Below are positions 7,710 to 64,000 of a stretch of DNA of 64,000 bases, piece by piece (position 1 is the stretch's first letter; every line of letters begins with the position of its first letter). A program made the position numbers and the translations under genes. Source of the DNA: Marsupella aquatica (taxonomy: Eukaryota > Plantae > Marchantiophyta); assembly GCA_973895155.1 (NCBI GenBank), contig OZ316891.1, positions 25,109,899-25,173,898 on the forward strand, written 5' to 3'. The notes below the pieces were generated by a model, which did not search any database, was not told the origin of the DNA, and saw nothing but the letters and a program-made list of their open reading frames with translations.

Positions 7710-10700
7710 TGTCGCGCCCCTAACCCGGGCCTTAAATCCAGTTTAGTGCCATGGCGCGACCTCGACCACCAGTAGGGGTGAGGGTTCGGGCAAGGAGGTG
7801 TGTAGTGACCTCAATTAGCCCTAAGTCGGGCTAAGTCGATATACTTACCGGTATAACACCTGAATAATTTGTACTAGTCATAGGTATATTTGTTTTCCAC
7901 CGCTGGAATATTCCCTCAGTTAGTGACTCGGACTAACTCCCGGCTTGGGGCCTTTCAAGCCATCGACACGATAGGACCTTGTGACATACAATGAGTGGCA
8001 ATCCCTACCATTAGTCCGCACCCGGTACGTCCCTTAAAATAGCGCCTTTACCCAGCCAAAGCATACACACAACACCAGTTACTTGCAGAACATTAGGGGG
8101 AAAAGACTACATTTACTCAGCGAAGCATCAGTTTACATGGTTGACTCGACTTCAAAGGGGGTCAGCAGGCCCAACGGCAGCTGATGCCCAGTCTCTACGA
8201 GGCCCTGCCTCGCACTTGCCCAACAAGCTCGACTTTGGCTCTCACTCCTTGGTGCGCTCTGACCCTGCTCAGGCCGGGACTCCCCGTGCCTTACCTTCCC
8301 TCTGCTGAGATAACTAAGCCTTCTCCCCCTCCCTTAGCGGAAGGGGAAGCCTAAATACAACATTTGCGGAAGAGAACCGGAGGATACTGCCTTCCGGGAT
8401 ACTACCTACTGACTACTGGCCGCGCCGCACTGACCGGTTGACCGTTGACGACAAGGTGCCGACCGAGATGGCAACGGCCAAGCCAACTGACTAATTCCAG
8501 TCTGTTGATGGACTCCATCCTACGTTGGCTGATCCTAACTGATCCGGCCCTAATTCTTCTTACTGCCGCTAATCGGCGCCTAATGACAGTCATTCTGTCA
8601 TTACGCCTAACCAAAAGATGCCGTTGACTTAACTGCTTCGCGCGGCGCCTGCTTCCGCCCTTCGCTAACCACCCCTTACGTGTGTGCAGTGGTCGGACCA
8701 GGGTTGGTCCCCTTGTCGGGACGAGACCTCGAGCCGCCTTGATCAGAGGTGGGCCCAGGTTTTCCCCGCTGGAGGATGAGCAGGGTAATGCGGTCTTGCA
8801 AGGCCTTGTTATCCCGTACCGCCTCCTCCGCCTCATTTGCAGCTTCATCGGCCTCGGTCTGGAGCCGCGTCACTTCCAGATTGAGCTGGTCGATGGAGTT
8901 GCGATGGATCTGGTCCTGTGCTAGCAATTTATCTCGCTCGGCGGAGAGACTAGCCACCTGCTGTGCTGCCTGCAGGAATTGTTTGTTGAGGTCGGTCAGG
9001 CTGGTAACCCGAGCTGAAGATTCTGAGCGTAATTGAAGCACGGTGTCATCCAGCTTCTTGAGTTCGACCTGCGCTCCGCTTAACTCCTGGTTTAGTCCGT
9101 CCCTCTATTCGACGGTGCGGACTAACTCCTCGCGGTGATTTGTTGCCTCCTCCTCGAGGTGTTCTACCAGCATCTGGAGGCGCCCGATCTCATTCCCCTT
9201 CGCCATGAGTTCTTCTTCCAGGCGGTTTACGATCCGTGGTTGGTGCTCTAACATGAAGAAGGTTGGTTGAAAGTACGCCGAGACTTGTTGTCCGATGTAC
9301 GTCGCCAGCTCCCCAGACATAGTCTGGCTAAACTTCTGGACCAGGTCGTAGGCCATGGTCCCCGGGGCTACTTGGTAGTCCTCCATCCTCTGGGGTAGCG
9401 GTGGGTCCTCGGGTGGAGCAACAATCTCCTCTGTAGTCAACGCTGGGGAGGGGAAGATATCTTCAGGTGGTGGAGGGATTGGGGGTGGTTGTACTGCGGG
9501 TAGTGGAGGTTCAACGGAAGGGGGCGGCGGAATTTCCACAGGGGGTGGTGGCGGAGTATTAGTCGGGGCTGCCGGCTCGGGGTTTGCCCGAGGGACGGTA
9601 GTCCGCGTCGTTGGGGTTGCCTCCTCTGAGGCGGGGGCGACGTTACCCGGGGCTGAGGTGGCCATATTCTTTCCTCTGGCCTCCCGCCGTGCCTTGTACC
9701 AGGCGAGGATAATGGCGATATGACTTCCCAAGTACGTCTTCCCCCCAATAGCCATACCACCCTGAGCCCGCTTTAGCTCCCTCGAGAATCTTCGGTAGAA
9801 GAATTGGGCCCAGTTCCATCGTTTGTACTGTTCCACCTGCATGATCGTGCAGAGGGAAATCTCGGATCGCGGCTCAATCATGTGTAGGGTAGTCCGTATG
9901 AAGTTAAGCCGCTCCATACAGGTTAAGTTGGTGCATGCCCCCTGCTTGTATCCGTTGTCCGTCTTACCCTCGGGTTTGAAGTGCCGCGGCGTATACTCCT
10001 TATCCCAAATTCGTATTTCCATCGGCACCGGTCCGGTTGGTAGGCAAAAGATTTGCGTTAACCGATGCTCCGTGAGTGATAAGTCCTGCCCCGAAACCTT
10101 GGTGGTCGATGCGTCAGTGTTGAAATTGGCGATGAACTCACAAATCTCCTTCGACCCGGCGGCGCATGGCCTCCATAGCAAGTGGGCAAACCGCTCCAAC
10201 TGATGCTCCTTGAGATAGTCTGCATGTTCGAGTTTCTTGATCGCGATCCAGACTACTTTGGGGACGCGGATTACCTGTAATAAGTTGGACTTTGGGTTAT
10301 CCAGGGGCCGTCGGGTCTGGTTGGTCGGGGGGTTTTCCGGGGCAGGTGCAGGTGCGGCGTCGGCCCGTGTTGTTGGCTCGGGGGCCGTCGTAGTCCTTGG
10401 CCGCTTACGAGGACGCTATTCGAGTTGCGGACTAGCTCGCTCGGAACCCGAAGAGCACTCCGTGTTGATTACTGGACGGACGTGGGACTGGTTCGGCGGT
10501 ACTCCGGTGGTCATCGGCTGAGGCACTGGTGGTATCGGGGTAGCCATGTCCCAGTTGAAGGCATTGGAGCTTTCCCCGAGGAACGTAAGATTACGCGCCG
10601 CTTCCCGTTGTCTGCTGATGTCTTCCTGGCGCTTTTCGGCTGCGATCTGCTGGTCTAGGTACCCCGGAATCTTGTCAAACTCTGCTTGAGTAAGCCGCTG

Positions 10701-11602: not shown

Positions 11603-12540
11603 AGTTGGTCCGCATCTCCAAACAACGGGATGGACTAAACCAGGACTTGCTTAAGGCTCAGGCTGACGTTACGGGACTCGAAGCCACCGTGCTTCAGCTT
11701 CAAGTAGAGTCCTTGGCTTGGGTTAATAGCCTGACGGACCTGAACAACCAGTTTGTTTAGGCTGCCCAGCAGGTCAACGTTATCACCGCCGATCAAGATA
11801 AGCGGTTGGCCCAAAACCAGGCCAACCTTAAGACAATTGGCCAGCTCAACTTGGAGGTGGCACGGCTCCAAAAGGAGATTGACAAAGTCTCCAATGAGGC
11901 AGAGGAAGCAGCGCGGGATAACAAGGCCTTGCAGGAGCAGATTACATTGTTGGTAAGCCAGCGGAGCAGGGCGGGAAACGCCTATGATCAGGGTGGCTCG
12001 AGGCCCCAGCCTGACAAGGGGACAAACCCTAGACCGATAGTGTAACGCGCGTGAGGGGTTTAGCAGTGGGGGCAATCAGGCGACTGCACAGCGCAACCGG
12101 CGGCAAAGGCATCTTTTTGAGTTAGCCATAGTGACAGAATAGCTATCATTAGGCACCAATTAGTGGCATGGTAGGCGAGATTAGGACAAAGTTAGTTAGG
12201 ACCATCCAGGGTAGGATAGGCGACAATCAACAAGCTAAGACAACTGGCAACAAGACTTAGATGTAGCGCTGCGGTTGGCGACCCTTGCCACTGATAGTCA
12301 ACAGGACAATGGGCAGGCGATCAACAACGTCAGTAAGTAGTTAGTTAGGTAGGCTTGGGCCGAGGGAGGTAGCATCTCCCCCGCCCATTGGCAAATAGTA
12401 TTTAGGCTCCCCCTTCTGCTAGTATGGGAGAGATGCTGGTGGCTTATTTCAGTTAGGAAAAGCATGGTGCACGGGAGTCCCGACCTGCAAAGGATCAAAG
12501 AGCACTAAGGAGTGAGAGCCAGAGTTGATCTTGCTAGGAG
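11603..12540 (+). mobile_element. Diverged partial copy of the same protein-coding LTR family (coiled-coil 3' part plus downstream motif)
   Basis: Translation LNLEVARLQ..EAEEAARDNKALQ..DQGGSRPQPDKGTNP matches 8676-9041, and GGGAGTCCCGACC occurs at ~12473. Cut by the CACTA end on the left and another LTR on the right. Confidence 0.8.
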
Positions 12541-20930: not shown

Positions 20931-21213
20931 AAATCCGTAACCCTATACTTATAACGGTCATATTATAAACCCTAACCCCCTAACCCTAGGCCCGCAACCC
21001 TGAAGTCCATGTCGGCGAGGGTCGCCAAGATGACTCAGGAGTTACATCGGCGAGGGTCGCCAAGATTAGATGACTCGGCGAGGGTCGCCAAGATTAGATG
21101 ACACGGCGAGGGTCGCCAAGAAGTCCATGTCGGCGATGATCGCCCTAAACCCTAAACCCTAAACCTCGCTACCATTAGGTGACAATGTTAGCGAGGGTCG
21201 CCGACATACAATG

Positions 21214-24200
21214 TCAGACGATACTGGCATTTGCTACAAGGCCGCGGACCTCAGTTAGAGTCAAGATAGGTTGGTTTACACATTGATCCGTGTCAATGTC
21301 CCTTTTACAGATGTTTGCAAAGCACCAGTACAAGTACTTGCACGGGAAGTAGGCTCTTCCCATCGACTCCCTATACATGAAATCCTTGCAGGAGCAACTT
21401 GGGAAGACACAGATCTGGACGCAATGTACTGAAGTTCGCCCCCTGCTAGTGTTGTTCACCATGAGCCTTATGCCGGTAGCATTCCCTGTTTCAATTCTCC
21501 TCATTGACGTGCACACAATGGCCTCGATCTTAGCATTTTGGATACGTGCTAATGCATCCTTGGGGGGGTCTGACCTCCTTCGCCTTGCCTGGCCATTGCG
21601 GCGAGTACCACGATCGTCAGGCCTTGTAGGATCTGGCCGCTCTGGGTATGTGTTCAAATCCATGATGATGTCGCCAGCACTCACTACCTCATTCATAACA
21701 TCACCACCAGAAATGACATCCACTCCATTGTTGTGCAGGAAAATAACCTCTGCTTCTGTAAGATTAGTACCACGAGAGACCGGAAACTTTGAAGGCAGTG
21801 GTGGTAGCACGCCGGTAATGAAAGGCAAAGAGGATTTTGTGCAACACTGGTTGTTCGGACAAAACCAATACGGATATGGAACACCTGGTTCATTAAATTT
21901 ACTCCCCGCCAGCCAACAAATACCAACAACACCCAATTCGCTCACTTTCAATCCTGCCTCTCTAATAAATTGAGCACATACTCCCCGTTCCTTGCCTTTG
22001 AACGCACCTCTACAACCGGGACTCTTACCACATGTTGAGATGCGGGCCAGAAATAACGTCCCTGGCACCAAATCAGTTTCCTGAACATGTCTTCTGACGG
22101 GCTCCGGACGTGGGGTTGACCTTGTCGTCCGTTGGAGAGGTTCCACAATGACAACTTCAGGCTCGCCCGAGCCACTACCGCCATCAGAAGACAGATCCAC
22201 AACTTCAGGATCTGTGCTTTTTAAGGTTGCGTCCCTGTTTGCAACCCCCTTGAACTTCCTCTTCTTTGGTCTCGTTACCAGAACAATGTCAGGCCTGTGT
22301 GAATCTTCTACTACCACATGAGCGCCAGATACGGCCTTCCCGCGCTTCATAGAAACCGTTTCTACATCTCCGCTAAGTGGGTCCGCCGACGAGAACTTAC
22401 GCAATTCTGGTTGAGTTATAACTGTGTTCAATTTTGAAAAGAAAGATTCCACATTCCCAACAGCAGTAGCGTCTCGAAGTCGGAGTTCAAATAGGCTCGG
22501 TCCCCGCCCTTTCCTCCCACTGTGTTGGTAGTGCTCCAAAGATGCAACCTGGCTCAATGCTCGAGTTGCATCTAAGTTACAGGACTGTACTAACCCAACC
22601 TTTCTATTAGAGGACCATTTCCGCATGACCGCATGCACCGACTCTGCCCCGCTGTGGTTAGGCATCAGCGTAGCCTTTTCTCTGTCCATCTCCTACAATT
22701 TCCAAGAAGAATGTCAATACAATTGGAAACATATCTCGGCGACCGCTGCCAATATTTGACAGAAAGCGTTACAGACAGAGGTCATCCAATTGAACATCCC
22801 TTCAACTGACCCCATGTCAGCGAGCTTCGCCGAGATTTGACGGATTTCATGCATATAGAGGAAAAGCGTTAGACACTTACGAGTCTCAAAAAATTTCCCC
22901 ATTGAGAAAACCGAACAATCCACCAAGACATCCACGTTGTGAGCTCCTTCGCTTTTCCAGGTAGCGCGTTGCCCTCGCTCCACCACGTCTTAAGCTTCTC
23001 AAAAACTCGAAATGCAAGAACTATGTTGCCGGCGTGTCGAAGCGAATCTAGAATTTCCTTATGCTCAAATCTCTTCTGTGGGACAATGTGCTTCTGCACC
23101 CTCTCCACTGATTGGGCCCAGTGAAACGCATCAAACCTCTCTCTATGGGTATTTACCTTTCCATCCCAAAATTCATTGCGGATTGCATTCCACCCAGCAG
23201 CAGCATTATCAGCCATAAAGCCACAAAATTCAACATTGATAAGCCCATGTTCTCCACACACCCTCCTCATGACCTTCCATGCAGTTTGTAATGCCGCACT
23301 ATCTTCTGAAACCAGCTCACAAACAAATATTGTGCACAGGCCCCGATAGAAATGGTCATACACGTGTGCTGACATGGTGCACCATTTGTTGTCAAGTATA
23401 CGATGCATCACATCAGACATCACCCATGAATGCTCGAGATCCCCGCCTGGCTGCATTCTTCGAACAAGGTCCACCCCGGAACCAGGACCTTCTGTACTCA
23501 TTTTAAAAATGTGCGGTCGCTCGTCTGTTCCCACGTTCTGGGATGGGAACAAAACACTTTGGATAAACGGAAAGGCAGTCACCTTCCGCATCTCCAGTAT
23601 CATGTTAAGATCAGACGACACATGACTGTACTTCTTGATGCTCCTGATCATAGAGCAAAAAATGGATTCATCACCGAGGATGGACAACATTTCATTAAGG
23701 TCTCTTGCCTCCTCAGATGTCACCATTTTAGCCACTGGGTCTTCAAGGATATCTTTAAGTTTCTGTATTGCCTTGCCCTTGATAACAGACGGCATAGCAG
23801 TCGGACTCCTCTTCAGCTCCACCTCCACAAGATTGCGCACAACTGATCGTTGATCCTTGTTATGCGTGAACATTGCAGGATGGGTGTGATTTCCTATATG
23901 CATCGCAACACGAGACTTGTGACAATAATTCACGTCATCCTTGGTTGGAGTGATATAGTACATCTCACTTGGGCATCGAGCTATACACCTGGGAGGCCTC
24001 TTGCAGTACGTACAAATTACACTCGACGGGGTAACATCGCGTCCAACAGGGAAAGGTAGCTCATTTGTGCCTGCTCGATCTCGGGTCCACTTTGCAGAAT
24101 TGTGCTCTTGTCGCTGTTGAAAATTTTCACAATCCTCATGCAGACATCGCAGAGAACCCAAACACTTGACGCTTTGGATCTTGTACGAGTGACTATTGTT

Positions 24201-25363: not shown

Positions 25364-26195
25364 CTACATCAACTTTTTATCCATACTACTCGGCGAGGGT
25401 CTCTGAGATCTATTTGGGACTCCTGGGGCCCACACTCTTGTGCAAGCTCGAGTTTCACAGTAGGAAATTTGTTGACTTTTCAACATTGACTGTTCAACAT
25501 TGACTCTTCGAGTCGGAGCATCATCGACTTTTTATCCCTACTCCTACTCGGCGAGGGTCTCTGAGATCTATTCGGGACTCCTGGGGCCCACACTCCTGTG
25601 CAAGCTTGAGTTTCACAATAGGAAATTTGTTGACTTTTCAACATTGACTGTTCAACATTGACTCTCCGAGTCGGAGCATCATCGACTTTTTATCCCTACT
25701 CCTACTCGGCGAGGGTCTCTGAGATCTATTCGGGACACTTGGGGCCCACACTCCTGTGCAAGCGAGAGTTTCTCAGTAAGAGATTTGTTGTTTTTGCAAC
25801 ATTGACTGTTCAACATCGACTCTCCAAGTCGGAGCATCATCGACTTTTTATCCCTACTCCTACTCGGCGAGGGTCTCTGAGATCTATTCGGGACACCTGG
25901 GGCCCACACTCCTGTGCAAGCGAGAGTTTCTTAGTAAGAGATTTGTTGTTTTTGCAACATTGACTGTTCAACATCGACTCTCCGAGTCGGAGCATCATCG
26001 ACTTTTTATCCCTACTCCTACTCGGCGAGGGTCTCTGAGATATATTCGGGACTCCTGGGGCCCATACTCCTGTGCAAGCAAGAGTTTCTCAGTAGGAGAT
26101 TTGTTGTTTTTGCAACATTGACTGTTCAACATCGACTCTCCGAGTCGGAGCATCATCGACTTTTGATTCCGTCTCTTACTCGGCGAGGGTCTCTA
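25364..26195. repeat. 158-bp tandem array, ~5.3 copies
   Basis: CGGCGAGGGTCTCT at 25391, 25549, 25707, 25865, 26023 and 26181 (exact 158-bp period). Confidence 0.95.
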
Positions 26196-29100
26196 AGATG
26201 GATTTGGATGTAGGATTCCCAGATTGCCTCCTTGGCGCAGGTCTACTTCAGAGTTTGGTGTCGGTTGTTTGGAGTGCATATCATACTCGGCGAGCCTCTC
26301 TGAGATATATTCGAGCATTGTAAAAGAGAGAAAACGCCGGTCTGTATGGATATTTGCAAAAAAAATTGGATTCATGGTACGGAGAAGCGTTTCTAGTTCC
26401 ATAATCCCATTTGGGCGAGGGTCTCCGAGATATATTTGAGCATTGTAGAGGAAAAAACACCCAATTTGGAGTTGTCGAGTCGTTTTGTACGGATAATTGT
26501 AAAAAGTTTATGGATTTATGGTACGGAGAAGTGTTTCTAGTTCCATAGTCCCATTTTGGCGAGGGTCTCCGACATCTTGGGTCCCACGGCGGGGGACCAC
26601 TAGAAGAAAACCACCCATTCTGAGACCCTCCCCTATGTGACTTGTGCAAGACCTTCATAAATATGCGACTCCAAGTTTGTGGGTGTCATGTTAGTTACAT
26701 CATACCAACTAAGTTTTGGTGAGGCTGTGGGAAGTCATGCTTACAACTTTATCCAATGTCGCTATTGTAACACTGGTAAGTAAGAAATAGGTAAGTTATG
26801 TTAGTTACTCCACAATAGTGCATTGGACATCATTTTTTAAAATTCCGTCAGCATGCATACCCCATTAGCCAATTTCGGATGCCAATCCCTAATGTGCAAC
26901 TCCCGGTGCAACTACATATTGCACACTCATGGTTCAATAAGTCCAAATCTAAATGGGTATAAATATGGGGGTTTTCATCAAAATGGTGGGTACTTTCACT
27001 TATAATGTGGGGTCATACCTGACTATATTTGGCCTTGTTCTTGACCAAAATGCACTCTCCCCACATTGAACTTTTTGCTAAGTCATTTGCATTTGTTCTT
27101 TTATGTCCAAACCAACCTGTTTGCTAAGTCACTCGATGGCTGCCCACATGTGAGGGGTACTACTTTCCCTCAGGGTCAGTGTACCTTGGAGGTTGGTTTT
27201 GCGAGAGAAATTGGGGCCCGTGCCCTAAGTGTTCAGGGTCAGTGTGCCGCGGAGGTTGGTTTTGCGAGGGAAATTGGGAGTCGACGACCTTCATTCCAGC
27301 TGCACTCTTTGCGAACTTCCTGTAGGGGGCAATGAAAGTGTTTGAGCGCGATTGGACTTTAGGGTGCAAATGTGTTTAGGATTGGCCTGCTACGAGCGTC
27401 AGTGTGGAGGTCTGCCAATCAGTTTTGAGGGGAGTCCATTGTCGCTTTTCAACCTGCTGGTGAGCTAAGCTGCTATTGAGTTTCAAGTGAGAGCTGCCGA
27501 CTTGGAGTTGAGCTCTGCGAGGTCGAGCTTGAGTGTACATCTGCTCGACATACTTTTGGGAGCTCACAGTTGGCAGGAGGGCCAAGTCATTGCACAAAAA
27601 GTTGCAGCCGTGACAGTGCAAGCTAGGTAGGCGGAGGCTGGTTACTACAAGCAAGGCGGAGGATCACTGCGAGCTAGGCGGAGGAATGCTACACTGCTTC
27701 ACATTGTCAAGAGACATGCTGCATCGGCCCAAGTAAGGTTGCATTGACCTATCTATCTCTATGTCACCTCTATGTCTGTAAGGTCCTAACCGATAGTGTG
27801 CTTAGTGAGGTCCTGCTTTAAGCTACATTTGTGCGATTGATTGTGTCCTGAGAAGCTTAACCATCACATGGGGGAATGGTAGCGAGAAAGGAGGGGTGGA
27901 GCCTGATGGTCGCCAATATTCAAACAGGGTCGCCTTGCTCGATTTGCAAACTTTCACTTAGGACGTAGATTAAAGCATTAGACTATGGGCTTCAATCGCT
28001 ATGGAAAAGTAGGTTTTTGCTGCGTGGCCCTTCAACAGTTGAGTGGTGTGAGGGCGTGCAAAGACAACGAGAGCTTTGGAAAGTAACTGTCATTCAGCCC
28101 GTCGTCCGAGTTAAGTTGCTGGTTTTGCAGTTTTACAGTAGTGCTTCATGCGCAATTCATGATACGGGCAGTCAGCGGGCTGCGACAATGTAGAGCCTGC
28201 GACAGCATTTTGTGAGTGTTGCAAGGTGGGTTTTCTTTGTTTGCTCTTCTATTCTTGGCTGTCAGTCGATTATTCACCCCATCTCGTAGTGCATTTTCTT
28301 TTGTCTTCGTCTTTGGAATCCCTGCTGGGACACGGTCGTAGTAAGCGGAAGAGGTGATCAGGTCCTGGGTTTATCTTTTCTTGAGGTTTGTGTAAGAGCC
28401 GGGATCTGTATTTTGGGACAAAGTAGTGTATGGGAGCTGCAGGGCATCTTTTTAGGGTATGAGATTTTGGTCATGGTACGTAGTGGAATAAGATGGATTT
28501 GCGAACTGGGAGCTTGGATTTACAGAGTTAGGCCTTTGAAAACATATTTTTCTTCTTCATCATTTCTTCCCCTCGTGTCACTATGCACCAAATAATCCAC
28601 GGAGAAATCGTTGTATTCTATAAGGAAGTGAGGATTGGTGACAATATTGTGATACTTTAGGACGTGTTTGTGAACGTTCGCTGGTGTAGCGATCACCCGG
28701 GAATATGTGTTTTATAGCTGGAGTTTTCGATTCTCCAACTAAGTTGCTGATCCTTCCTCGACCTGCTTCATCTTGCAAAAGATTTGCTTCTAGCTCATTG
28801 ATGAGGCGGTAATCGTAGTAGGCGTGACTATCGAATAATTTCAGGGCTCTGAAGAGTCACCCGTGGCAGAGAACAATGATTTTGAACATCTTGAGAAAGA
28901 GTTTCAAGCAAGATCCTTTGGCTTTGCCTTGGGTGATAGCGAACACATGTGTGTAGGCTTCCACACAACGGCGTTCCATGATCTTGGAACCCACTTGCTT
29001 TCTGGAAGTGACTATCCAGAACCTGGGGTCCTCCGGTGGTAGCCTTATCCCAAGGTTTTTGATGTTGCTTCAAAGTTGCTTTGAGCTGTCGTCTCAGTAT

Positions 29101-45936: not shown

Positions 45937-46455
45937 ATGCTCGAGCGACGCATTTTTGTACCCTTTGTGGATCCTCCAGAATGGGGGAATGGCGCCATGA
46001 TGGACCAGCTAAGGAGGCTGGATGAATCACTAATTTTAAAGATTTGCAGGCTGGTCGCAAAACCATTTTATAATAATGCATTTCACTTCTACGTAGACCA
46101 GGTAGGGGGAGAAATTTATATCCGATGGGATAGATATGTTGCATTTTCTAGAAGAGTTATCCTGCTCTTTCTGAAAACTGGTGCAGTAAAATGTTTTATA
46201 CTGCACTGTTGTCATGTTGTGAAGGGCAATCCTGCGTATGAACCAGAATTCTATGCCCACAGCAGACATAGAGCATTCGATGAGATTCAGGATGTGATTG
46301 ACCAGCTGGACAATCCTCTTGCCACCAAGTTTTTGATTGACACTGGTGGGAAGTTATATTTGTACAGGACTCGTCAACTCCCCCCTCGGCCTCTTTGTGC
46401 ATTATTTAGGTTAGTTTATGTATCTTGTTTATGGACAAATGGTGAGATGTGTTAG
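45937..46455 (+). CDS. Hypothetical protein (172 aa), probable transposon cargo
   Basis: ATG-initiated ORF with protein-like composition next to gene C; no family recognised. Confidence 0.35.
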   Translation: MLERRIFVPFVDPPEWGNGAMMDQLRRLDESLILKICRLVAKPFYNNAFHFYVDQVGGEIYIRWDRYVAFSRRVILLFLKTGAVKCFILHCCHVVKGNPAYEPEFYAHSRHRAFDEIQDVIDQLDNPLATKFLIDTGGKLYLYRTRQLPPRPLCALFRLVYVSCLWTNGEMC

Positions 46456-48913
46456 TGTCACGCGATTGACATGGGTCTTAACACCAAAAATGTCACTATG
46501 GGTGCCAAAACCATCTCCTTGTACCTGAGGATCATGAAGGGATGTTGCGAAGGCTGGTAAACACCAATTTATGCCCTTAACACCAGACTATCATAGCAAG
46601 ACTCTATCACACATCACCCAAGCTCAATCCCAAAGAACCAAGGTTGGGGATCAGGTCTGCGCTCATGATAGTTCTGGTGAGAAGGGGTCTTCATATTAGG
46701 CCCGTACACACAGGGCCTAGCACTATGGTGCGCATAGATCTATACGTATGCTTACTGTCATAGGTATGTTTCTATTCCGCCGCCGGAATGTACCCATAAA
46801 CTAGTGACTCCTGACTGATTCCCGGCTTAGGGACTTCTAAGCCATTGCCCCACCACTCTGCCATTCCACTCTCAGCAATCAGAGCTATGACAGTCCTCAC
46901 CCAGCCCGCTTCAATGCACCCTGTACACCTCTCAATGACACTGCTAGTCCCATCATACACTCAGATTGCCTCACACACACACACACATCCATGAGAGAAA
47001 TGAGGCCTGAGAGGAAAACTCAGTTAGATTCAAAGATGTGCACAACAGTTCACTGAGAACACTTGATCCGAACACTAGGCCCGAAGGCTGTCTCCTCCAG
47101 ATTACGACGTGCTTGCCCTGCAAGCCCCATGCTTGCCATGCAAGCTCAATCCTGAACCTGAGCCCGGCTCACTCCAGATTGCGACGGCAGATTGGACTCA
47201 AACCAATCCCGTACTTGCCTTGCAAACTCAATCCTGAACTCAACCTCCTTCACTGCACTTCATTCTTGGGGGCACATACAGATCTCACACCTCCAATTCA
47301 GAACGTCAAGTTACGCATACATAGTTGACTCGACTTCAAAGTTGGTACCAGGCCTAACGGCGATCTACCCCAGACTGCAATGAGGCCCGGCCTCACGCTT
47401 GCCCTACAAGCTCCGCTCTGGCCATAGATCCCTTAGTGCTCTCCACCAGACAAAGGCCGGGACTCCCCATGGATCACGTAGCCTTGCCAGACTGAACTGT
47501 AAATGCTCCTCCTGCTGCCCCTCAATCAATGTCTCAGCCTCCCTAATGTGCTCACCACAAATCAAATTGACATCCTCCCCACAGTTTACAATCACCAATA
47601 CATCACCTATCACCAAGGCTCTGTATCGGGGGAAAAGAACCCAGTTGTGCTACCCACTAGAAAGAGCCACAATCCAGCTCGCAAACCTAGCAACCCGTTG
47701 CTGTGAAGCTTGGCTGATTACTCCCTGAGTAATAGCACAACCAAGCTCTCCCCAACACACAGCGTCCAAGTCCAGCCTTGCTTGCACAGAGCTCCTCCCT
47801 GCTGCTCAGTCTAAGAGAGATCACACAACTGATGTCCCCCCCCCTTGCCTCTACCGGGGGGCTGCTCTATATACTCTCTCATTGAGCCCAAATGGGTGGA
47901 TGCTACGCTGCTAGAGCCCCATCCCAGCCCTAACAGAGCCGCCACTATCTCTAACTACTGAACCCTAACTTGCAGCTTTATTTCTATCTCAAATTGGCTA
48001 TGTACTTTGGATTTGGCCCTCCTCCATGGTTTTTGCGAGCTTGCACCTCCTCTCCTGATTTCTCTATTCAACCATTTGCTGCGTGGATAGCAGCGTTGGA
48101 AGCGGCTTGAGCTCCTCTTTCCAACGAGGTCAATTATAGCCGATTTGGTCAAATACACAGAGAGTTATGCCCCTGCAACCGAGAGGGGGTACTCACTGTT
48201 GCGCTAACCCGAGTTACATAGCTAACCTGAGTTCGGCTAACCTAGCTATCCTATCTAACCCGAGTAGAGCTAACCCGTGGTCTCGGGTTAGGCCGCTACC
48301 CGCTATCCGCTATCCGCTAACCTAGCCTAAGCTGAGCCCGAACCCGAGCTTACCTATGCTAACCTGAGCCCAAGTTTAGGCTAACCCGAGTTAAGTCTAA
48401 CCCGGGATCAATCTAGTCCGAACCCGGGTTAAGCATAAGCTGAAGCCGCGCTGACCTGAGCTAAGCTGAAGCCGTGCTTACTTGAGCTAAGCTGAAGCCG
48501 TGCTGACCTGAGCTAAGCTGAAGCCGTGCTCCCCATAAGCTAAGCCGTGGTCGAGCTTGGGTTAACCCGAAACTGAAGCCGAATCCGCTAATTCCGGCCA
48601 CAAGTTAACCCGTCACACTAATCAGGCCGTATCTTTCTTAATACACCTCTGTTTCTCGAGTGTTTTATATCGATTTTACTCGCCTTGACCAGATCTTTCC
48701 AATGCTCTTTACAAATCCGGATTTGGTGACATATTGAAAGAGATATGGTCATCGACCACCCGCGACATAGCTGTTATTTCCCTACTCTTAACGCCATGAT
48801 TGCCCTTATTCTTGCCATCTTGCTAATTGTTATGCAATATCAATAGCTACTCCTTGCATACAGCAACCTACTTAATCAGATTACAAAATAAGGACCATGT
48901 CATTGGCGTTACA
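46456..48913 (-). mobile_element. Solo LTR (2458 bp), non-coding relative of the ORF-bearing LTRs
   Basis: TGT...ACA termini and 5-bp TSD GTTAG (46451-46455 / 48914-48918). Shares two motif blocks with 7710-11545. Confidence 0.9.
48200..48580. repeat. Degenerate minisatellite inside the LTR
   Basis: Repeated CTAACCCGAG and ~30-bp CTGAGCTAAGCTGAAGCCGTGCT units. Confidence 0.7.
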
Positions 48914-53829: not shown

Positions 53830-54384
53830 TGTGGTGCGTCCCATGGCTCCCTAAACCCAAGAAACCCCTCTGCACAAGCCGATTCCCGCAGGTTTCGCTC
53901 TTGGCGAGGCCAATTTTGCGGCTTAGCGGCATGGGACGTTGCTAACCTCCTTCTACTACTTTTACTATTAACATTTTTCTCACATATACTGGACAGATCC
54001 TTCATCGGGTCATGAGATACGTAGTCGGCCTCTTCTAGGCCTTCCCTTGTCCTCCTCTCTCGGTTTCCCTTTAGGTATGTTTGGATTCCGCCGCCGGAAT
54101 GATCCCCAACTGGTTTGGGTAAGCCGCTAAGACCTCTCTCAGCTCGTGTGGTGCGCCCCATGGCTCCCTAAACCCAAGAAACCCCCCAGCACAAGCCGAT
54201 TCCCGCAGGTTTCGCGCTTGGCGAGGCTGTTTTTGCGGCTTAGCGGCATGGGACGCTGCTAACCTCTTCCTCTACTACTATTAACATTTTACACACATAT
54301 ACTAGACAGATCCTTCATCGGGTCATGAGATACATAGCCAGCCTAATCTAGGCCTTCCCTTGTCTTCCCCTCCTTCTGGAGATA
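53830..54384 (-). mobile_element. End of another LTR with an internal ~230-bp direct duplication, interrupted by MULE copy 2
   Basis: Starts TGTGG. 53830-54060 is repeated at 54147-54370, and the TTCCGCCGCCGGAA hairpin shared with other LTRs lies at 54086-54099. Confidence 0.55.
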
Positions 54385-56585: not shown

Positions 56586-59500
56586 TGTGACGCCGCCGGT
56601 ACGGCAAGTAATGAGTAATTTGGTCTAAACCGTGCCTAGCACGCGCGTTAGGGGTATCTTAGGCCGCTATGATTAGCATAACGACAGTATTTAGGTAGCC
56701 ATTATGAGTAGGAAATCATTAGTCAATAAGGGGAATTCATGTTTGGGCTGGCGGCGCGTCCCCATTTGCACGCCCGGGTTACGAGCGTGGAGGGGCCCTT
56801 CCTCGGGTCCGTATAACGAACTTTGGGAGGCATCCGTTGACACGCGGTGACTCAGACCGGCGGAGTGGCCGGTACACTACAAGCGTGAACGGTTCAGCCT
56901 ATGGGCAGCGAGGAGATGACAGGGGATTGGCAAGCCCTCAAGGTATAAAGAGGGAACCGGCCCTTTGGAGTGCACCAGTCCATCAGTCCACGCGCCAGCT
57001 TCGATCCCAACTCTCTCGTTCTCTCTAAGTCGCCACTACTATCTTCTCTGAATGTTGCGCACAATCCTCTCCAGTTCGGCCATTCGATTCTGGACGCAGT
57101 TCCTATCTACCGGAAGGCACTTGGCCGACTCATTGAAACACGCCAACCCGTGCCGATACAAAATAGAACGCGAGTACGAGAGAGCCATCCGCCTAGCAGG
57201 ACAACACCACTACATCCTTAACTTTGACTACCCATCCCAAAGTGAGCTTTACCAACCAGCTGAGGTATCTGGGTACTTCTTCAACGGAGACAAATATATC
57301 GGGTTTTGGGAAGCATTGCTTTGGCTTCCGGACGAGGTCTTCAATATCCTGGGGACGATCGACTTGCAACAACATCACTTCGACCACATCCCTGCTCAGG
57401 TTCGGGCTATCATCAACATCAAGTCTAGTACTAACCGTTCGACAAGGTCGTCCGCACTTGTTTTGGAGAACTTCTACCAGCACCTGCAGAGCTTCATGGG
57501 AACTAGACCCGCAACCACCGGCGCCAGCCCGATGGACCCCATACCCGTACCCATACCAATGCAGACTCAGGGTCAGGCTCAGCCTCAACCTCAGCCTAGC
57601 CAACCCCCACCGCCAATCGCCCCGCCAGCAGTACAAGTACGCTCTGTTATCAACGCTGTGGACCTTAGCGACGACGACGAACCTACCCCACCCTTGATCA
57701 GGCGGCCAAGAGGAGCAAGCACTCGGGGGGCCGATACTACATAATCCCCTCCTCGGACCCACGGAGCGGCTCTAGCAGACAACACGGTGATCGTGGCCGC
57801 CCCGGGCCCATTACTAACGGCGGTAGCACTACCTGTGCCCGAAAAAGAGGATGGGGAGGTGTCACCATCCCCGAGCCAGCCACGGGGGAAGAAGAGGAAG
57901 GAACCCACCACTGCATCCGGGTTACCATTGGCCACGGTAGCCGTGGCCAAGGTGACAATGCACCACATGGGGGAAAATGTGCATAACAACATCCTCCATC
58001 CCAAGCATGCGGTGTACCTGAAGACTCAGGGATTTGAGCACCTCACCTCTCTCCCCTGGAACACTTGCAGGTACTACGGGGAGGACATGACAGAATTCGT
58101 CAAGAATTATGACGGCATACGTCAACAGACTCGGCTGCGGGGAAGGAATATGTCCCTCATGGAAGAACGGCTCAAGATGATCTTCGGACTACCCAAAGGT
58201 GACCATCAAGTCAAATCACGGGCTCCCGTGGGCAAGGGAGCCAAGTACCAATCCTCAAGTTTTCCTTCAGAGGGAGCAGTGGACAACGGGTTCGTGATGA
58301 GGACCTGCCTCATGCCCAAGATAGCTGAGCGGCTGGAGTTCCAAAGGTACGCTCTCCACATGATGGAACCCCGGGGGGAGATCTCCGCCGCCCAGGTTAT
58401 CCAGGTCGAGAACTATCGACCCAGGAGGTGGGCGTCGTACTTCGCTAAGAAATTCCATGAAGAGATGGAGCGGCGAAAGAAGACGCTATATATTGGCGGG
58501 AAGGTATATTTTGCTAGCCACATCGAGATCATTCTTGAGTGGTACGCTCAGTTTGATCGACGAACCCTTCCCCGTGTCAACGTTGCAAGGCTGGTCCCCG
58601 CTAGGTGGGTGTTCCCGGCCTTGGAGAGACGGCCCCAACCCAAGGCACGAAGTCCAATGGACACGCAGGCTTCACCCACCCCACCCCCGCAAGTAGCTAT
58701 AGTCGTGACCGAGGAGGTACCGGATGGGTCGGTTATCGCAACCGTAGATGCGATCCAACAGGCCGGGCTAAGTACAGAAGTCGGTACAACGGAGGTCTTA
58801 CTCGAGCCCGGGCCCCCCAATGACCCGGCGATGGCTATTCCGGAGAACCGGACATTGCAGTTGCAGGACACTCCAGCCCCTTCCAACGCGTCACCAAGGC
58901 TGGATGTCACTGCCCCGGCCCCCGCATGTTGACGTCTGCCCATGCCCAACTCCGGACAGGCACAACCTGGACCACCCAGAACTCTTCGTACCGGGCACAT
59001 TTCTGAATGGGCTTCTGGGAGATTTTTCTCATCAAATTGCCCGGGATATCGGGGAGTTCATGGCCCGGAAGGTAGCCTGTTTCTTCAATCAGGAGTTGGT
59101 TGCCGCAGTAAAAGCCGGTCGGGCCCTGTTGGAGGCCCTTCAGAGGATAGAGCGATACCGGGAGGAGTCCGTATACTTAAAGAACGAGGTTGCAGCTCAG
59201 GAGGCGGAGCTTCTGCAACTACGACCCAAGGTCGCAGCCGCCGACGAGTCGTTAGCAAAGGCGCACGCCCTTACCGCCCTAGCCGAGCAGGCCAAAGCAG
59301 GGAATGAGGCCGAGATTTCACGGCTCCGGTCCCAGATTGACAGTTTGAAGAAACAAACTGTCATCTGGCAGAAAGACTTGGAGGAGGCCGAAGAACAAGC
59401 CCAGCGGGACACTACGGAAATAGCCACGCTACAAGCCAAAGTAACGCGGCTTCAGACCAAAGCCAATAAGCAGGACCAATTGGTAGGCAAGCTGACGAGC

Positions 59501-60583
59501 GACGCCCAGCAGCTGGAGGAGGCATGCCAGGAGGCAGCGGAGGAGACGAACGCGGCAAAGCGAGAGAACGAATCTCTGCTAGACCAAGTCCAGCTCCTCA
59601 AGTCGGACAACAACAGGCTTCGCAGACAGCGGGAAGACCGCTCCCACTCGGGCGGCTCTGGCAAGCGTGCCAGACATTAGCGGTGGAGTAGGAATAGAAT
59701 AGGGTTAGGAGTAGCTAAAGTTAGGCTATTGGGACAGGCACCTACCTTAGTTACAGCAGCACTGCCGTGCTGTCTAGCCTGCGTAGATTAGGATCTTCTA
59801 ATAAGACACGGCCATTTTTTGGCCTGACGGTCAGATTAGTTAGGACCTAAGTCAGCGGATCTTCGGGCGGGAGGACACTCCGTTCCCCGGCCCTTAGTAT
59901 TTAGTGCACCCCTCGGTAGAAGCAAGGGGGGGGTTTTTAGTCTCAGAGTTGGACATCCATGGTATGTGCGGGGAGTCCCGACCTCTGGGAATGAAAGAGT
60001 ACCAAGGGGAGGGGGTAGGACTAAGCTCGTTGGGCGAGTGCGGAGCCGGGCTCCGTTGTAGTATACTCTCTCGGCCTTGAACCTATTCATTCCGGAGCTA
60101 TCAGGTCAACCAAGTGTACGCACATGTCCCCTATGTAGTAAAATCCTTTCCCATTATTTCCTTCGTGTAAATCGAGATTGTATGCTTGTGCGCGTGTATG
60201 TGTGTGTGTGAATCTCGTGTATAGGTGACAACGCCGGGCCGAACGCACTACCTGAGTCGTGCACGGGGTGCAGCCTATGGGTATGTGGTTGCGAGCACGG
60301 GTTGAGGACCTGTATCATAGAATCTGGATCGAAGGCGGACAACACGAAGGCTTAGAAGTCCTTAAACCGGGGTTGATCCTGTTATCGACTAAGGTATGTT
60401 CCGGCGGCGGAACACAAACCATACCTAGGAGATGTCCGTATCTAACAGTAGGCGCACTTAGCGCTAGTTTTCGTGAATTAGGTGCATGACGCGCTTCCCT
60501 CCCTGCTCGAACCCTCATTTTTACGAAGGAGATGCCCGTTTAAAGCTGAAGCCTGAGTTACGGCCAAGGCGGATGACGTGACA
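56586..60583 (+). mobile_element. Solo LTR (3998 bp) with a long internal ORF, inserted in F-box-like gene B copy 2
   Basis: TGTGACG...CGTGACA termini and 5-bp TSD AGGAA (56581-56585 / 60584-60588). Removing it restores the host C-terminus ...ERLDNGVPVNRDNF*. Confidence 0.92.
57052..59680 (+). pseudogene. LTR-encoded ~875-aa protein (one stop, one frameshift)
   Basis: 57052-57744 and 57787-58932 are in the same frame, with a shift to 58820-59680 (coiled coil). TATAAA at ~56944 upstream. Homologous along its length to 8676-10991. Confidence 0.8.
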
Positions 60584-61374: not shown

Positions 61375-62760
61375 CTAAACCCTAAACCCTAAACCCTAGG
61401 CCCAAAACAAGTGACCCTATTTGGCTGTTTGGTAAATGTCGGTGAGGGTCTCTGAAATACAATGTTGGTGAGGGTCTCCAAGATACAATGAGGAAGGAAA
61501 CCTATTCATGTCGGCGGAGGTCGTCCAGATCAGACAATACCGGCATTTGATACAAGTTTGCCGACCTCAAAGTCAAGATTGGTTGGTCATTTTTCCTAAA
61601 CCCTAAACCCTAGGCCCAACACAGGTGACCCTATTCAGCTGTTTGGTAAATGTCGGCGAGGGTCTCCAAAATATCAGCGAGGGTCTCAGTAATACAATGT
61701 CTGCGAGGGTCTCCGAGATACAATGAGGAAGGAAACCTGTTCATGTTGGCGGAGGTCGTCGAGATCAGACAATACCGGCATTTGATACAAGTTTGTTGAC
61801 CTCAAAGTCAAGATTGGTTGGTCATTTTTCCTAAACCCTAAACCCTAGGCCCAACACAGGTGACCCTATTCAGCTGTTTGGTAAATGTTGGCGAGGGTCT
61901 CCAAAATATCAGCGAGGGTCTCAGTAATACAATGTCTGCGAGGGTCTCCGAGATACAATGAGGAAGGAAACCTATTCATGTTGGCGGAGGTCGCCGAGAT
62001 TAGACAATACCGGCATTTGATACAAGTTTGTCGACCTCAAAGTCAAGATTGGTTGGTCATTTTTCCTAAACCCTAAACCCTAGGCCCAACACAGGTGACC
62101 CTATTCAGCTGTTTGGTAAATGTCGGCGAGGGTCTCCAAAATACAATGTCGGCGAGGGTCTCCAAAATACCTTGTCAGCGAGGGTCTCAGTAATACAATG
62201 TCGGCGAGGGTCTCCAAAATACCCTGTTAACGAGGGTCTCAGTAATACAATGTTGGCAAGGGTCTCCGAGATACAATGAGGACGGAAACCTGTTCATGTT
62301 GGCGGAGGTCGTCGAGATCAGACAATACCGGCATTTGATACAAGGTTACCGACCTCAGAGTCAAGATTGGTTGGTTAACACATTCATCCATTCATAGGAA
62401 CCGTTCATACATAATATCGGTCACATATAACCGCGTCTTTTTTCCTAAACCCTAAACCCTAGTCCCAAAACAGGTAACCCTATTCGGCTATTTGGTAAAT
62501 GTCGGCGAGGGTCTCCGAAATACAATGTCGGCGATGGTTTCCGAGATACAATGAGGAAGGAAACCCTATTCGGCTATTTGGTAAATATCGGCGAGGGTCT
62601 CCGAAATACAATGTCGGCGATGGTTTCCGAGATACAATGAGGAAGGATACAATGAGGAAGGAAACCCTATTCGGCTATTTGGTAAATGCCGGCGAGGGTC
62701 TTCAAGATACAATGTCGGCGATGGTCTCCAAAATACAATGTCGGCGGAGGTCGCCGAGAT
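61375..62760. repeat. Complex tandem array, 235-bp core unit containing telo-boxes, the family palindrome and the transposase 3' end
   Basis: CTATTCAGCTGTTTGGTAAATG at 61631, 61866 and 62101. Units include CCTAAACCCTAAACCCTAG and GACCTCAAAGTCAAGATTGGTTGG. Confidence 0.85.
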
Positions 62761-63605
62761 CAGACAATACCCGCATTTGATACAAGGTTGCTGACCTCAG
62801 TTAGAGTCAAGATTGGTTGGTTAACACATTGATCCGTGTCAATATTCCTTTTGAAGATGTTTGCAAAGCACCAGTACAAGTGCTTGCACGGGAAGTAGGC
62901 TCTTCCCATAGACTCCCTGTACATGAAATCCTTGCAGGAGCAACTTGGGAAGACACAGATCTATACGCAATGTATTGAAGTTTGGCCCCTACAAGTGTTG
63001 TTCACCATGAGCCTCACGCCTGTAGCATTCCCTATTTTGATTCTCCTCATTGATGTGCACACAATTGCCTCGGTCTTAGAATTACGGATACGTGTGGCAG
63101 CGTACTTGGAGGTGTCTGACCTCCTTCGCCTTGCCTGGCCATTGCGTCGAGTACCATGCTCATTAGGCATTGTAGGATCTATTCGCTCTGGGTATGTGTT
63201 CAAATCCATTATGATGTCGCCAGCACTCACCAATTCATTCATAACATCTTCACCAAAAATGACGTCCACTCCATTGTTGTGCAAGAACAAGACCTCTTCT
63301 TCTGTAAGATTAGTTCCACGAGAGACAGGAAACTTTGAAGGCAGTGGTGGTAAAACACCGGTAATAAATGGCAAAGATGATTTTGTGCAACACTGGTTAT
63401 TTGGGCAAAACCAATACGGATATGGAACACCTGGTTCGTTAAATTTACTCCCAGCCAGCCAACAGATACCGACAATGCCTAATCCGCTTACTTTTAGTCC
63501 TGCCTCTCTGATAAATTGAGCACATACTCCCCGTTCCTTGCCTTTGAATGCACCTCGACAACCGGGACCAATCATTGGGATGCGAGCCAAAAAGAACATG
63601 CTTGG
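62760..63605 (-). pseudogene. 3' part of MULE transposase copy 2 (zf-PARP-like + SWIM), interrupted by an LTR
   Basis: Near-identical to 21214-22060, with SWIM PCKHLYW intact and a stop at 62961. Confidence 0.85.
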
Positions 63606-64000
63606 TGTGACACGGATAACGTGTCACTTGACCGAACCCAGGTCATAGATTAGGACTTATACGGTCATTAGGACCGTAGCCATAGCGTAGAATAGCACGT
63701 ATAGCCGTCAAGTGGCCATTATGATTAGATTAGGAGTAGGTTAAGATAACCAAATAATTACGAGTTCAGGAAAGGGATTATTACGCACGACCGAGGTACG
63801 GTGGCGGCAGCGGAGTAAAAATCAGTTAGAAGAATCACGCTTGGACCGAGGCGCCGACTTCAGCTCGTTATCAATGACCAAACGGCCTGACCTTCTCACG
63901 CTCGGGCTCGTCCTGGCACCCCCATAAGAGAGGAGCCGATGGCACTGCGGGCCATTTGCTCATATTTACCTTTTTGGAATTCGCGGTCGCTGCCATCCAC
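63606..64000 (+). mobile_element. Start of an LTR of the same family as 7710-11545
   Basis: TGTGACACGGATAACGTGTCACTTGACC... is nearly identical to the reverse complement of ~11150-11545. Confidence 0.9.

What the first reader, a model, noticed from the sequence alone, without database searches (positions are those of the whole stretch)
59968..60113. Conserved structured element A in LTRs: two adjacent NGG-triloop hairpins with compensatory changes
Seen in three diverged LTRs, read in ORF sense. Hairpin 1: GCTCGT-TGG-GCGAGT (60025-60039), GCTTGT-TGG-GCAAGT (within 8197-8228, minus) and GCTTGT-AGG-GCAAGC (within 47380-47411, minus). Hairpin 2: GCGGAGC-CGG-GCTCCGT, GCGAGGC-AGG-GCCTCGT and GTGAGGC-CGG-GCCTCAT. 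Paired positions change together. They are preceded by a conserved GGGGAGTCCCG.CC ... AC(C/T)AAGG and followed by GTCAAC(C/T)A. The element is retained even in the LTR that lacks the ORF. Inference: a functional RNA structure (packaging, dimerisation or export signal, or an unknown ribozyme).
Basis: seen in the sequence. Interest (0 to 1): 0.72.

Follow-up and report, generated by a model that had tools for sequence, protein, structure and literature searches.

The report
Forked G-loop RNA in retrotransposon LTRs
Three distantly related end repeats of jumping genes, likely from a liverwort, carry the same long stem forked into two small G-rich hairpins, kept by many paired mutations, so it likely folds as RNA and likely serves as the handle by which the element's own capsid protein picks its RNA for packaging and copying (untested).

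Summary
Confirmed, and larger than reported. The two hairpins exist in all three copies: 39 of 39 cells pair, and 4 of 13 pairs change on both sides. They are the forked tip of a 107-110-nt bulged stem that each copy folds into on its own (z -3.8, -3.5, -2.3). Over the whole stem 109 of 117 cells pair and 18 of 39 pairs change on both sides, 4 by transversion. It starts 72 nt after a TATA-like box in two solo LTRs and 405 nt after one in the ORF-less unit. Y-NGG-G triloop hairpins occur 12 times downstream of these boxes (0.7 expected) and never upstream. No Rfam match, no hammerhead core, no conserved palindrome. No RNA data, no R-scape, only three full copies. Best reading (0.4): a cis-acting leader/R-region RNA showing unpaired Gs to Gag/nucleocapsid. 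Main rival: a TAR- or poly(A)-hairpin-like regulator. The scan noted the host LTR family on other DNA, but my look-ups found no note on this RNA element.

The parts
56586..60583 (+). Solo LTR L60 (3,998 bp) with a broken gene in its 5' part
   Evidence: TG..CA ends and AGGAA duplication on both sides; 1,253-2,613 contigs laid on its last 900 bp in each of 4 runs
59898..59932 (+). TATA-like TATTTAG and C-run/G-run box; likely the LTR promoter (inferred)
   Evidence: Same pair of motifs at 8357/8346 (-) and 47873/47861 (-); TATTTAG also at 12399
59969..59984 (+). 5' conserved motif of element A; can form a small local hairpin or pair with the 3' motif (unresolved)
   Evidence: Near-invariant in 4 copies; both folds appear
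59988..60094 (+). Core: bulged stem capped by a three-way junction (Y), copy L60
   Evidence: MFE -48.6 kcal/mol, z -3.80; covariation
60025..60039 (+). Hairpin 1: 6 bp, U-G closing pair, NGG triloop
   Evidence: Pair probabilities 0.87-0.99; first loop base is C in most family depth
60040..60056 (+). Hairpin 2: 7 bp, C-G closing pair, NGG triloop, directly adjacent to hairpin 1
   Evidence: Pair probabilities 0.90-1.0; 3 of 7 pairs change on both sides
60100..60113 (+). 3' conserved motif (RGTCAACYA), followed at once by TGTA in all three copies
60260..60272 (+). Hairpin 3: a third NGG-triloop hairpin, homologous at 8017-8029 (-) and 46913-46929 (-)
8138..8286 (-). Element A in solo LTR L8 (7710-11545); core 8158-8266
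   Evidence: z -3.50; AAAGA duplication
47321..47470 (-). Element A in the ORF-less LTR-like unit L47 (46456-48617); core 47341-47450
   Evidence: z -2.30; no ORF match; no target duplication
47171..47242 (-). Extra fork-like module L47b (longer hairpin 2); Y fold from alignment only
   Evidence: Model R1, which was not built on it, scores it at E 0.008; aligned; its own MFE is a different fold
47094..47157 (-). Extra fork-like module L47c, a near-duplicate of L47b; Y fold from alignment only
   Evidence: R1 E 0.11; its own MFE is a different, nested fold
12470..12538 (+). Fourth copy, 5' half only by sequence, in an LTR fragment related to L8
   Evidence: 74% to L8 over 148 nt ending here; R1 E 0.003
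57052..59680 (+). Broken gene inside the LTR, upstream of element A (context); core predicted VANC-like
   Evidence: 38% identity to the L8 counterpart; the L8 core model matches VANC21, Z 7.7, rmsd 4.4, 195 aligned, next row Z 2.2

Best explanation
Element A is a conserved forked stem in the LTR that likely folds in the element's RNA near its 5' end and likely acts, with further NGG-loop hairpins, as a landing site where the element's Gag/nucleocapsid would grip unpaired guanines to select and chaperone the RNA for packaging and reverse transcription. SHOWN in sequence: the stem and Y junction, their paired changes, fixed single-base bulges, an invariant A and G at the junction, repeated Y-NGG-G hairpins on one strand only downstream of a TATA-like box, and retention in an ORF-less unit. 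INFERRED: that the box is the LTR promoter, so that the element lies in R/U5; that it folds as RNA; that the ligand is Gag/NC; that the ORF-less unit is a non-autonomous rider that keeps and multiplies the signal. The fold itself I put near 0.8; the stated confidence is for the Gag/NC role.
For: Fold: three copies only 62-76% alike in this region each give the same stem-and-fork MFE in context and alone. Hairpins 39 of 39 cells; upper stem 22 of 27 (read by hand); lower stem 48 of 51 with 7 of 17 pairs changed on both sides, 3 by transversion (register set by hand). Each left arm pairs best with its own right arm (-28.6, -37.2, -31.7 kcal/mol; cross-copy -15.7 to -24.6). Two single contigs from another coded organism give linked arms with 4 more both-side changes, 2 by transversion (records 24 and 25, read by hand; depth about 4). 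Loop code: 12 Y-NGG-G hairpins of 5 bp or more in 2,753 nt downstream of the boxes, against shuffle means summing to 0.73; 0 on the other strand; 0 in 7,243 nt upstream; 8 in 108,008 nt of the rest of the window. Six of the 12 defined the motif; the other 6 (4 distinct loci) did not. Role by analogy: the HIV-1 packaging signal is a tandem three-way junction exposing unpaired Gs for NC (PMC4576207, passages); the CaMV/RTBV packaging signal is a purine-rich sequence on top of a long leader stem bound by coat protein (PMC5902531, passages). The LTR's own extra protein looks like a DNA-binding VANC rather than a Tat-like RNA binder (a weak-to-middling match).
Against: No transcript, start site or poly(A) site is shown. 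No full-length element, PBS or gag gene of these families was identified in the window, so LTR orientation and the presence of a zinc knuckle are untested. Folding energy does not pick the strand (antisense z -3.6, -3.5, -3.4 against sense -4.1, -3.0, -2.4), and the G-U excess rests on 6 positions against 2. If the element is in R it also sits on the 3' end of the LTR gene's mRNA, which is poor for selective packaging. The retroviral psi lies downstream of the PBS, outside the LTR (PMC3902901, passage), and R of the 5' UTR is dispensable for Ty1 RNA localisation to retrosomes (PMC4974528, passage). The extra L47 modules do not fold as a Y on their own and are near-duplicates of each other. Three full copies cannot give R-scape-level significance, and the shuffle control ignores relatedness.
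Confidence: 0.4

Rival explanations
1. A TAR-, poly(A)-hairpin- or export-element-like regulator: the forked stem on the nascent RNA binds a host protein and controls elongation, suppresses 3'-end formation in the 5' LTR, or licenses export of unspliced RNA.
For: Starts 72-74 nt after the TATA-like box in 3 of 4 copies; TGTA words (recalled as a plant poly(A) upstream element) begin right after it in all three full copies; donor-like GT words lie just before it in L60 and L8. HIV-1 TAR is a multi-bulge stem with a CUGGGA loop (PMC11885821, passages), which contains a C-NGG-G word.
Against: In L47 it lies 405 nt from the box, unlike promoter-proximal TAR (recalled requirement). No pyrimidine bulge like TAR's UCU is conserved; the fixed bulges are mostly single purines. 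Triloop hairpins are scattered over the whole downstream part, not only at its start. The ORF-less unit keeps it.
Confidence: 0.25
2. The selected structure is DNA: a hairpin of strong-stop cDNA that guides first strand transfer, or a palindromic promoter/enhancer array read on DNA (including by the VANC-like protein or by WRKY factors at the 3' motif).
For: The antisense strand folds as well as the sense strand and both fold with DNA parameters. Kissing hairpins of cDNA and R were proposed for Tto1 (PMC3061985, passages). The 3' motif read backwards is TTGACY, the W-box (recalled). The LTR protein resembles DNA-binding VANC21.
Against: G-U pairs at three fixed hairpin positions would be A-C on the other strand, and the antisense hairpins lose those pairs. 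Arms change in sequence while staying complementary over 100 nt, which a duplex-DNA word would not need. Strand transfer would still use the RNA fold and is not exclusive of the best reading.
Confidence: 0.13
3. A hairpin source or decoy of small RNAs, like the palindrome region of maize Sirevirus LTRs.
For: A long stem with a sequence-conserved lower part; Sirevirus LTR palindromes form hairpins, keep structure but not sequence, and are siRNA hotspots (PMC4728375, abstract and section 16).
Against: The longest uninterrupted helix is 7-9 bp, with fixed asymmetric bulges and a branched tip, a poor Dicer-like substrate (recalled criteria). It does not explain the conserved loops and junction.
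Confidence: 0.07
4. A new class of self-cleaving ribozyme.
For: A three-way junction with invariant unpaired A and G, and conserved terminal motifs that can close with non-canonical pairs. Plant retrozymes carry hammerheads in their LTRs (recalled; listing of PMC11722881 only).
Against: No Rfam family at gathering score in the window or at E up to 10 in three regions except two unrelated weak hits. No CUGANGA and no twister-like word in any of 3 copies. No covarying pseudoknot was seen. Cleavage in the leader would cut the cap off an autonomous element's RNA.
Confidence: 0.04
5. A neutral relic: an old inverted repeat or fold-back whose apparent covariation comes from CpG decay and template-switch copying between arms.
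For: Two of the 4 hairpin changes sit at CpG on both arms, and a CpG-biased null reaches 0.09 in one direction. Only three full copies.
Against: Transversion-type paired changes, fixed asymmetric bulges and a shared junction; A is the best-conserved non-coding part between L60 and L8 (0.65 against 0.54-0.60), whose proteins are only 38% alike; independent triloop hairpins.
Confidence: 0.07

Closest known systems
HIV-1 core packaging signal (psi), PMC4576207 (passages)
   Same: Three-way junction architecture with unpaired guanosines, in the 5' leader of an LTR retroelement; a donor-like site lies just upstream in two copies
   Different: Psi lies downstream of the PBS, outside the LTR, and has a palindromic DIS loop; here the structure is inside the LTR with NGG triloops and no shared palindrome; binding untested
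CaMV/RTBV leader stem with apical purine-rich packaging signal, PMC5902531 (passages)
   Same: Long leader stem with G-rich sequence exposed on top; a plant reverse-transcribing element
   Different: Much shorter here, forked tip, and no conserved short ORF before the stem (no ATG just upstream in L8; the L60 ATG is a minority letter), so no shunt layout
HIV-1 TAR, PMC11885821 (passages)
   Same: Bulged stem just after the likely start site; loop contains C-NGG-G
   Different: Forked, about twice as long, purine bulges instead of UCU, 405 nt from the box in one copy; the LTR's extra protein looks VANC-like, not Tat-like
Tto1 R-region hairpin for first strand transfer, PMC3061985 (passages)
   Same: Structured stretch in the repeated part of a plant LTR retrotransposon
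   Different: Tto1 is copia-type, its model was predicted for one element and needs an open loop; no cross-family covariation was seen in the passages read
Sirevirus LTR palindrome region, PMC4728375 (abstract, section 16)
   Same: Hairpin-forming LTR region shared between families in structure more than in sequence; module number varies
   Different: Those are palindromes of the cis-regulatory region and siRNA hotspots; here a defined bulged, branched fold lies downstream of the TATA-like box

Membership tests
LTR of an LTR retrotransposon | TG..CA termini with a 4-6-bp target duplication | tested here: met
   L60 AGGAA/AGGAA and L8 AAAGA/AAAGA
LTR of an LTR retrotransposon | Same test for the ORF-less unit L47 | tested here: inconclusive
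   Family-like TGTGAC..GACA ends but no target duplication
LTR of an LTR retrotransposon | Flanks a gag-pol body with PBS and PPT (fixes orientation and Ty3/gypsy class) | not testable with these tools
   Only solo units here and no genome held; the gypsy label comes from unchecked scan notes
Retroviral-type packaging signal (psi) | In the 5' leader of the genomic RNA | tested here: inconclusive
   Downstream of a TATA-like box; no RNA to map the start
Retroviral-type packaging signal (psi) | Unpaired guanosines in loops or junctions | tested here: met
   NGG loops and an invariant junction G in predicted folds
Retroviral-type packaging signal (psi) | Located downstream of the PBS, outside the LTR | tested here: not met
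   It lies about 470 nt inside the LTR's 3' end; so 'works like', not 'is', a retroviral psi
Retroviral-type packaging signal (psi) | Binds Gag/NC and is needed for encapsidation | not testable with these tools
   Needs binding and packaging assays
Dimer initiation site (DIS / Ty3 PAL) | Self-complementary loop or conserved exposed palindrome | tested here: not met
   Loops are NGG; the 6 self-complementary hexamers in 3 copies all differ in sequence; Ty3 uses a 6-nt palindrome (PMC11381356 section 26)
TAR | At the very 5' end of the transcript | tested here: inconclusive
   72-74 nt from the box in 3 copies, 405 nt in one
TAR | Pyrimidine bulge under a single apical loop; Rfam match | tested here: not met
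   Mostly single-purine bulges and a forked tip; no Rfam hit
Hammerhead ribozyme (retrozyme type) | CUGANGA and GAAA core (recalled) | tested here: not met
   0 CUGANGA in 3 of 3 copies; GAAA in 1 of 3
Other Rfam ribozymes and ncRNAs (twister, HDV-like, SRP, 5S, tRNA, miRNA) | Covariance-model match | tested here: not met
   0 hits at gathering score in 64 kb; at E up to 10 only two human lncRNA models far below threshold; ARAGORN 0
New ribozyme class | Self-cleavage | not testable with these tools
   Needs an in vitro assay
G-quadruplex-forming LTR sequence (PMC3902901) | Four G3 runs with short loops | tested here: not met
   0 with loops of 1-7 nt in 6 strands; 1 with loops up to 15; no quadruplex in the MFE of 3 copies with G4 folding on

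The most novel reading that the evidence does not exclude
Y-NGG-G triloop hairpins, led by this forked stem, are a multivalent packaging code written inside the LTR: the first structurally defined Gag-recognition signal of a plant LTR retrotransposon, conserved across families whose proteins are 38% alike and multiplied (6 hairpins, 3 forks) in an ORF-less rider to out-compete its helper for capsid protein.
Probability: 0.2. Interest if true: 0.75.

Novelty: new variant of a known kind. Interest (0 to 1): 0.5.

Why it matters
How LTR retrotransposons pick their own RNA is poorly defined even in yeast (PMC4974528, passage: packaging sequences 'have not been precisely defined'). Ten literature searches showed no covariation-supported leader structure for a plant element; the library lacks most subscription journals. 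This element is a short, exact candidate with built-in mutants (loop Gs, junction A and G, bulges, compensatory pairs), so any of the proposed roles can be tested directly. Structured R/U5 leaders are a known kind, the host is likely a liverwort without an active-element assay, and the role is inferred; hence a middling score.

Tried and rejected
More homologues: no genome is held. Pattern scans gave 0 in viral contigs and 4 in metagenome contigs, all 4 without any blastn or tblastx match to the window and without the hairpins; dropped. The protein alignment was too loose for a locus search. The word-based protein search found nothing; the Atlas gave no result. Expression: no RNA holder listed among 6 runs; not evidence either way. 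Laying contigs on a 66-nt stretch gave no variant table; on 901 nt only 40 of 147 variant rows were shown. Model R2 had a mistyped structure and was discarded; R3 found only its 5 training modules above E 0.9. The span as given (146-150 nt) and the 441-nt L47 leader are not unusually stable. MAFFT/RNAalifold on three copies misaligned the lower stem, so I set that register by hand from conserved anchors; a tool count of it was not obtained. L12 as a fourth full copy: it can fold into a stem (z -2.27), but its right side has no sequence match to the others and reads as an ungapped inverted repeat of related sequence, so it was left out of all counts. Rejected: G-quadruplex, ribosome-shunt layout (no shared upstream ATG), palindromic dimer site, tRNA, known Rfam families. 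Resemblances to 5S rRNA, SRP RNA and miRNAs were recalled only and have no Rfam support. The bacterial promoter scan is irrelevant to a plant. The plant structured-RNA survey PMC12218528 has no mention of LTR, transposon or Marchantia in its text and none of 5 terms in its one held supplement; its alignments were not compared.

Full report
Setting. The window is repeat-rich plant-like DNA: CCCTAAA runs, and Pfam hits to a plant En/Spm transposase and a Ulp1 protease in 2 of 18 frames scanned. No whole genome is held. The gene inside the LTR has 36 relatives at E up to 0.001; 6 of the 10 looked up are Calypogeia fissa proteins, so the host is likely a leafy liverwort. Two units are solo LTRs: L60 (56586-60583, +) and L8 (7710-11545, -), each with TG..CA ends and a 5-bp target duplication. 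L47 (46456-48617, -) has the same terminal words, no target duplication and no match to the LTR gene. The L60 and L8 proteins are 38% identical, so these are distinct families. The L60 family is highly repetitive: 1,253-2,613 contigs per run lay on its last 900 bp in 4 of 4 runs.

The observation. On the three-copy alignment 39 of 39 cells pair, 4 of 13 pairs change on both sides, 6 of 500 shuffles reach that, and sliding the partners drops pairing to 33-51%. That alone is moderate evidence: all 4 changes are transitions and 2 sit at CpG on both arms. A transition-only simulation gives 0.0005 for L8/L60 and about 0.001 for L60/L47 with even weights, but 0.01-0.02 and 0.0004-0.09 with CpG weighted 10-fold; L8/L47 is not significant (0.05-0.20).

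What is really there. Each copy, folded separately with flanks, gives one long bulged stem capped by a three-way junction that holds the two hairpins back to back. Upper stem, 9 pairs: 22 of 27 cells pair and 7 pairs change on both sides, 1 by transversion (read by hand). Lower stem, 17 pairs in a hand-set register: 48 of 51 cells pair and 7 pairs change on both sides, 3 by transversion. The middle helix was not counted, because its homology is unclear. Total: 109 of 117 cells, 18 of 39 pairs. The arms are only 15-23 of 36-37 letters alike between copies, yet each left arm pairs best with its own right arm, and at most 2 of 1,000 shuffles match it. Unpaired letters are kept: an A 5' of hairpin 1 and a G 3' of hairpin 2 in 5 of 5 modules, a purine bulge five bases below the junction, and single bulges in the lower stem. 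The longest unbroken helix is 7-9 bp.

Outside evidence, thin but in line. In the family's contigs the first loop base of hairpin 1 is mostly C where the window has T, so N is free. At 60085, 60100 and 60103 the family has G where the window has A, and these Gs match L8 and L47, so the window copy is partly decayed. Two single contigs of run X6 (another coded organism, depth about 4) have both arms readable; over 7 comparable middle-stem positions each pairs at 6, with 3 both-side changes, plus 1 in the lower stem (read by hand).

More modules. A model of the three copies also scored 12469-12640 (E 0.003), 47165-47245 (E 0.008) and 47096-47157 (E 0.11); the other 32 of 38 rows had E 0.28 or more. 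The two L47 hits align as extra forks with a longer hairpin 2; over all 5 modules 89 of 95 cells pair, 11 of 19 pairs change on both sides, and 0 of 500 shuffles reach this. Against this: the two are near-duplicates, their hairpin-1 loops are AAG and AUG, and neither folds as a Y alone. The 12.4k copy is a 5' half by sequence and was left out of the counts.

A loop code. Hairpins of 5 bp or more with a Y-NGG-G loop occur 3, 3 and 6 times downstream of the TATA-like boxes on the ORF-sense strand (shuffle means 0.14, 0.21, 0.38; 0, 1 and 0 of 200 shuffles as high), 0 times on the other strand, 0 times in 7,243 nt upstream in the same LTRs, and 8 times in 108,008 nt elsewhere. Six of the 12 defined the motif. 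The others are a homologous third hairpin about 200-460 nt downstream in all three units and three more in L47.

Position and strand. A TATA-like word plus a C-run/G-run box lies 72-74 nt before element A in L60, L8 and the 12.4k copy, and 405 nt before it in L47; TGTA follows the element at once in all three full copies. I infer that A lies just inside the transcript, in R or U5. Folding energy does not choose the strand. G-U pairs do so weakly: 11 G-U against 2 A-C cells in the three copies, at 6 against 2 positions, three of them fixed hairpin positions. No RNA data could be examined.

Mechanism. Conserved shape with free stem sequence, fixed G-rich loops and repetition of the loop motif point to a multivalent protein-binding RNA. 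The most likely ligand, by analogy only, is Gag/NC: HIV-1 psi exposes unpaired Gs at three-way junctions (PMC4576207, passages), and plant pararetroviruses carry a purine-rich coat-protein site on top of the leader stem (PMC5902531, passages). Retention and multiplication in an ORF-less unit fits a cis signal used in trans. The LTR's extra protein was folded with pLDDT 88.8; its best match is DNA-binding VANC21 (Foldseek E 0.24; Z 7.7, next 2.2; Z under 8 is middling), in line with unchecked scan notes, which lowers a Tat/TAR-type pairing. Against packaging: the site is inside the LTR rather than after the PBS (PMC3902901, passage), it would also be on the LTR gene's mRNA, and R is dispensable for Ty1 RNA localisation (PMC4974528, passages). 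I give Gag/NC recognition 0.40, a host-read regulator of elongation, 3'-end choice or export 0.25, a DNA-level role 0.13 (Tto1 model, PMC3061985, passages), a small-RNA source 0.07 (PMC4728375, abstract and section 16), a neutral relic 0.07 and a new ribozyme 0.04.

Known or new. No Rfam family matches; hammerhead core, palindromic dimer site and G-quadruplex tests fail (Ty3 palindrome from PMC11381356, abstract and section 26). TAR shares a bulged stem and a C-NGG-G word (PMC11885821, passages) but not the fork or bulge type. PMC7264820 (passages) covers extra ORFs, not RNA structure. Ten searches and a term search of PMC12218528 with its one held supplement showed no description of this motif; bioRxiv supplements and most subscription papers could not be seen. 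Verdict: a real, apparently undescribed architecture of a known kind of part (structured R/U5 leader of an LTR retroelement). Interest 0.5.

Noticed in passing
window 60342-60425 (+); 7870-7965 (-); 46750-46850 (-); fragment 54072-54101 (-): A second conserved structured block near the LTR 3' end: a GGCTT/AAGCC hairpin and a stem ending in a CCRGCGGYGG hairpin; with hairpin 3, 8 of 31 predicted pairs change on both sides.
   Followed up: partly
window 57052-59680 (+) and about 8676-11000 (-): Broken gene inside both solo LTRs (stops, and a frame change in L60); core predicted VANC21-like, C-terminus coiled-coil-like. Noted before by the scan on other pieces of this genome.
   Followed up: partly
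window 46449-46455 and 48618-48624: L47's flanks are near-inverted copies of each other (TGATTAG / CTAACAC on the minus strand) instead of a direct target duplication; unexplained.
   Followed up: no
window 12558-12660: Two tandem stretches that are reverse complements of element A's left-arm word, right after the truncated fourth copy; one is an ungapped inverted repeat of its left arm (24 of 33, counted by hand). It may belong to a related LTR on the minus strand.
   Followed up: partly
window 60104-60110, 8140-8146, 47324-47330: The 3' motif RGTCAAC read backwards is TTGACY, the W-box of WRKY factors (recalled); the R varies as the W-box allows.
   Followed up: no
window 59961 (+), 8296 (-): Splice-donor-like words 8-9 nt before element A in L60 and L8; if used, spliced RNAs would lack the element, as for retroviral psi. 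Not seen in L47.
   Followed up: no
window 63606-64000 (+): 5' start of another LTR, 92% identical to L8's start, inserted into a repeat that is uninterrupted at 21182-22065.
   Followed up: no
window 48334-48530: L47 carries short tandem repeats (26-nt period) where the other LTRs carry the gene.
   Followed up: no
window 56944 and 56688 (+): TATA-like words upstream of the LTR gene in L60, a possible second promoter inside the LTR.
   Followed up: no
window 17771-18510, 25386-26317, 61381-62780: Tandem arrays of 37, 158 and 235 nt, the last with telomere-like CCCTAAA runs.
   Followed up: no
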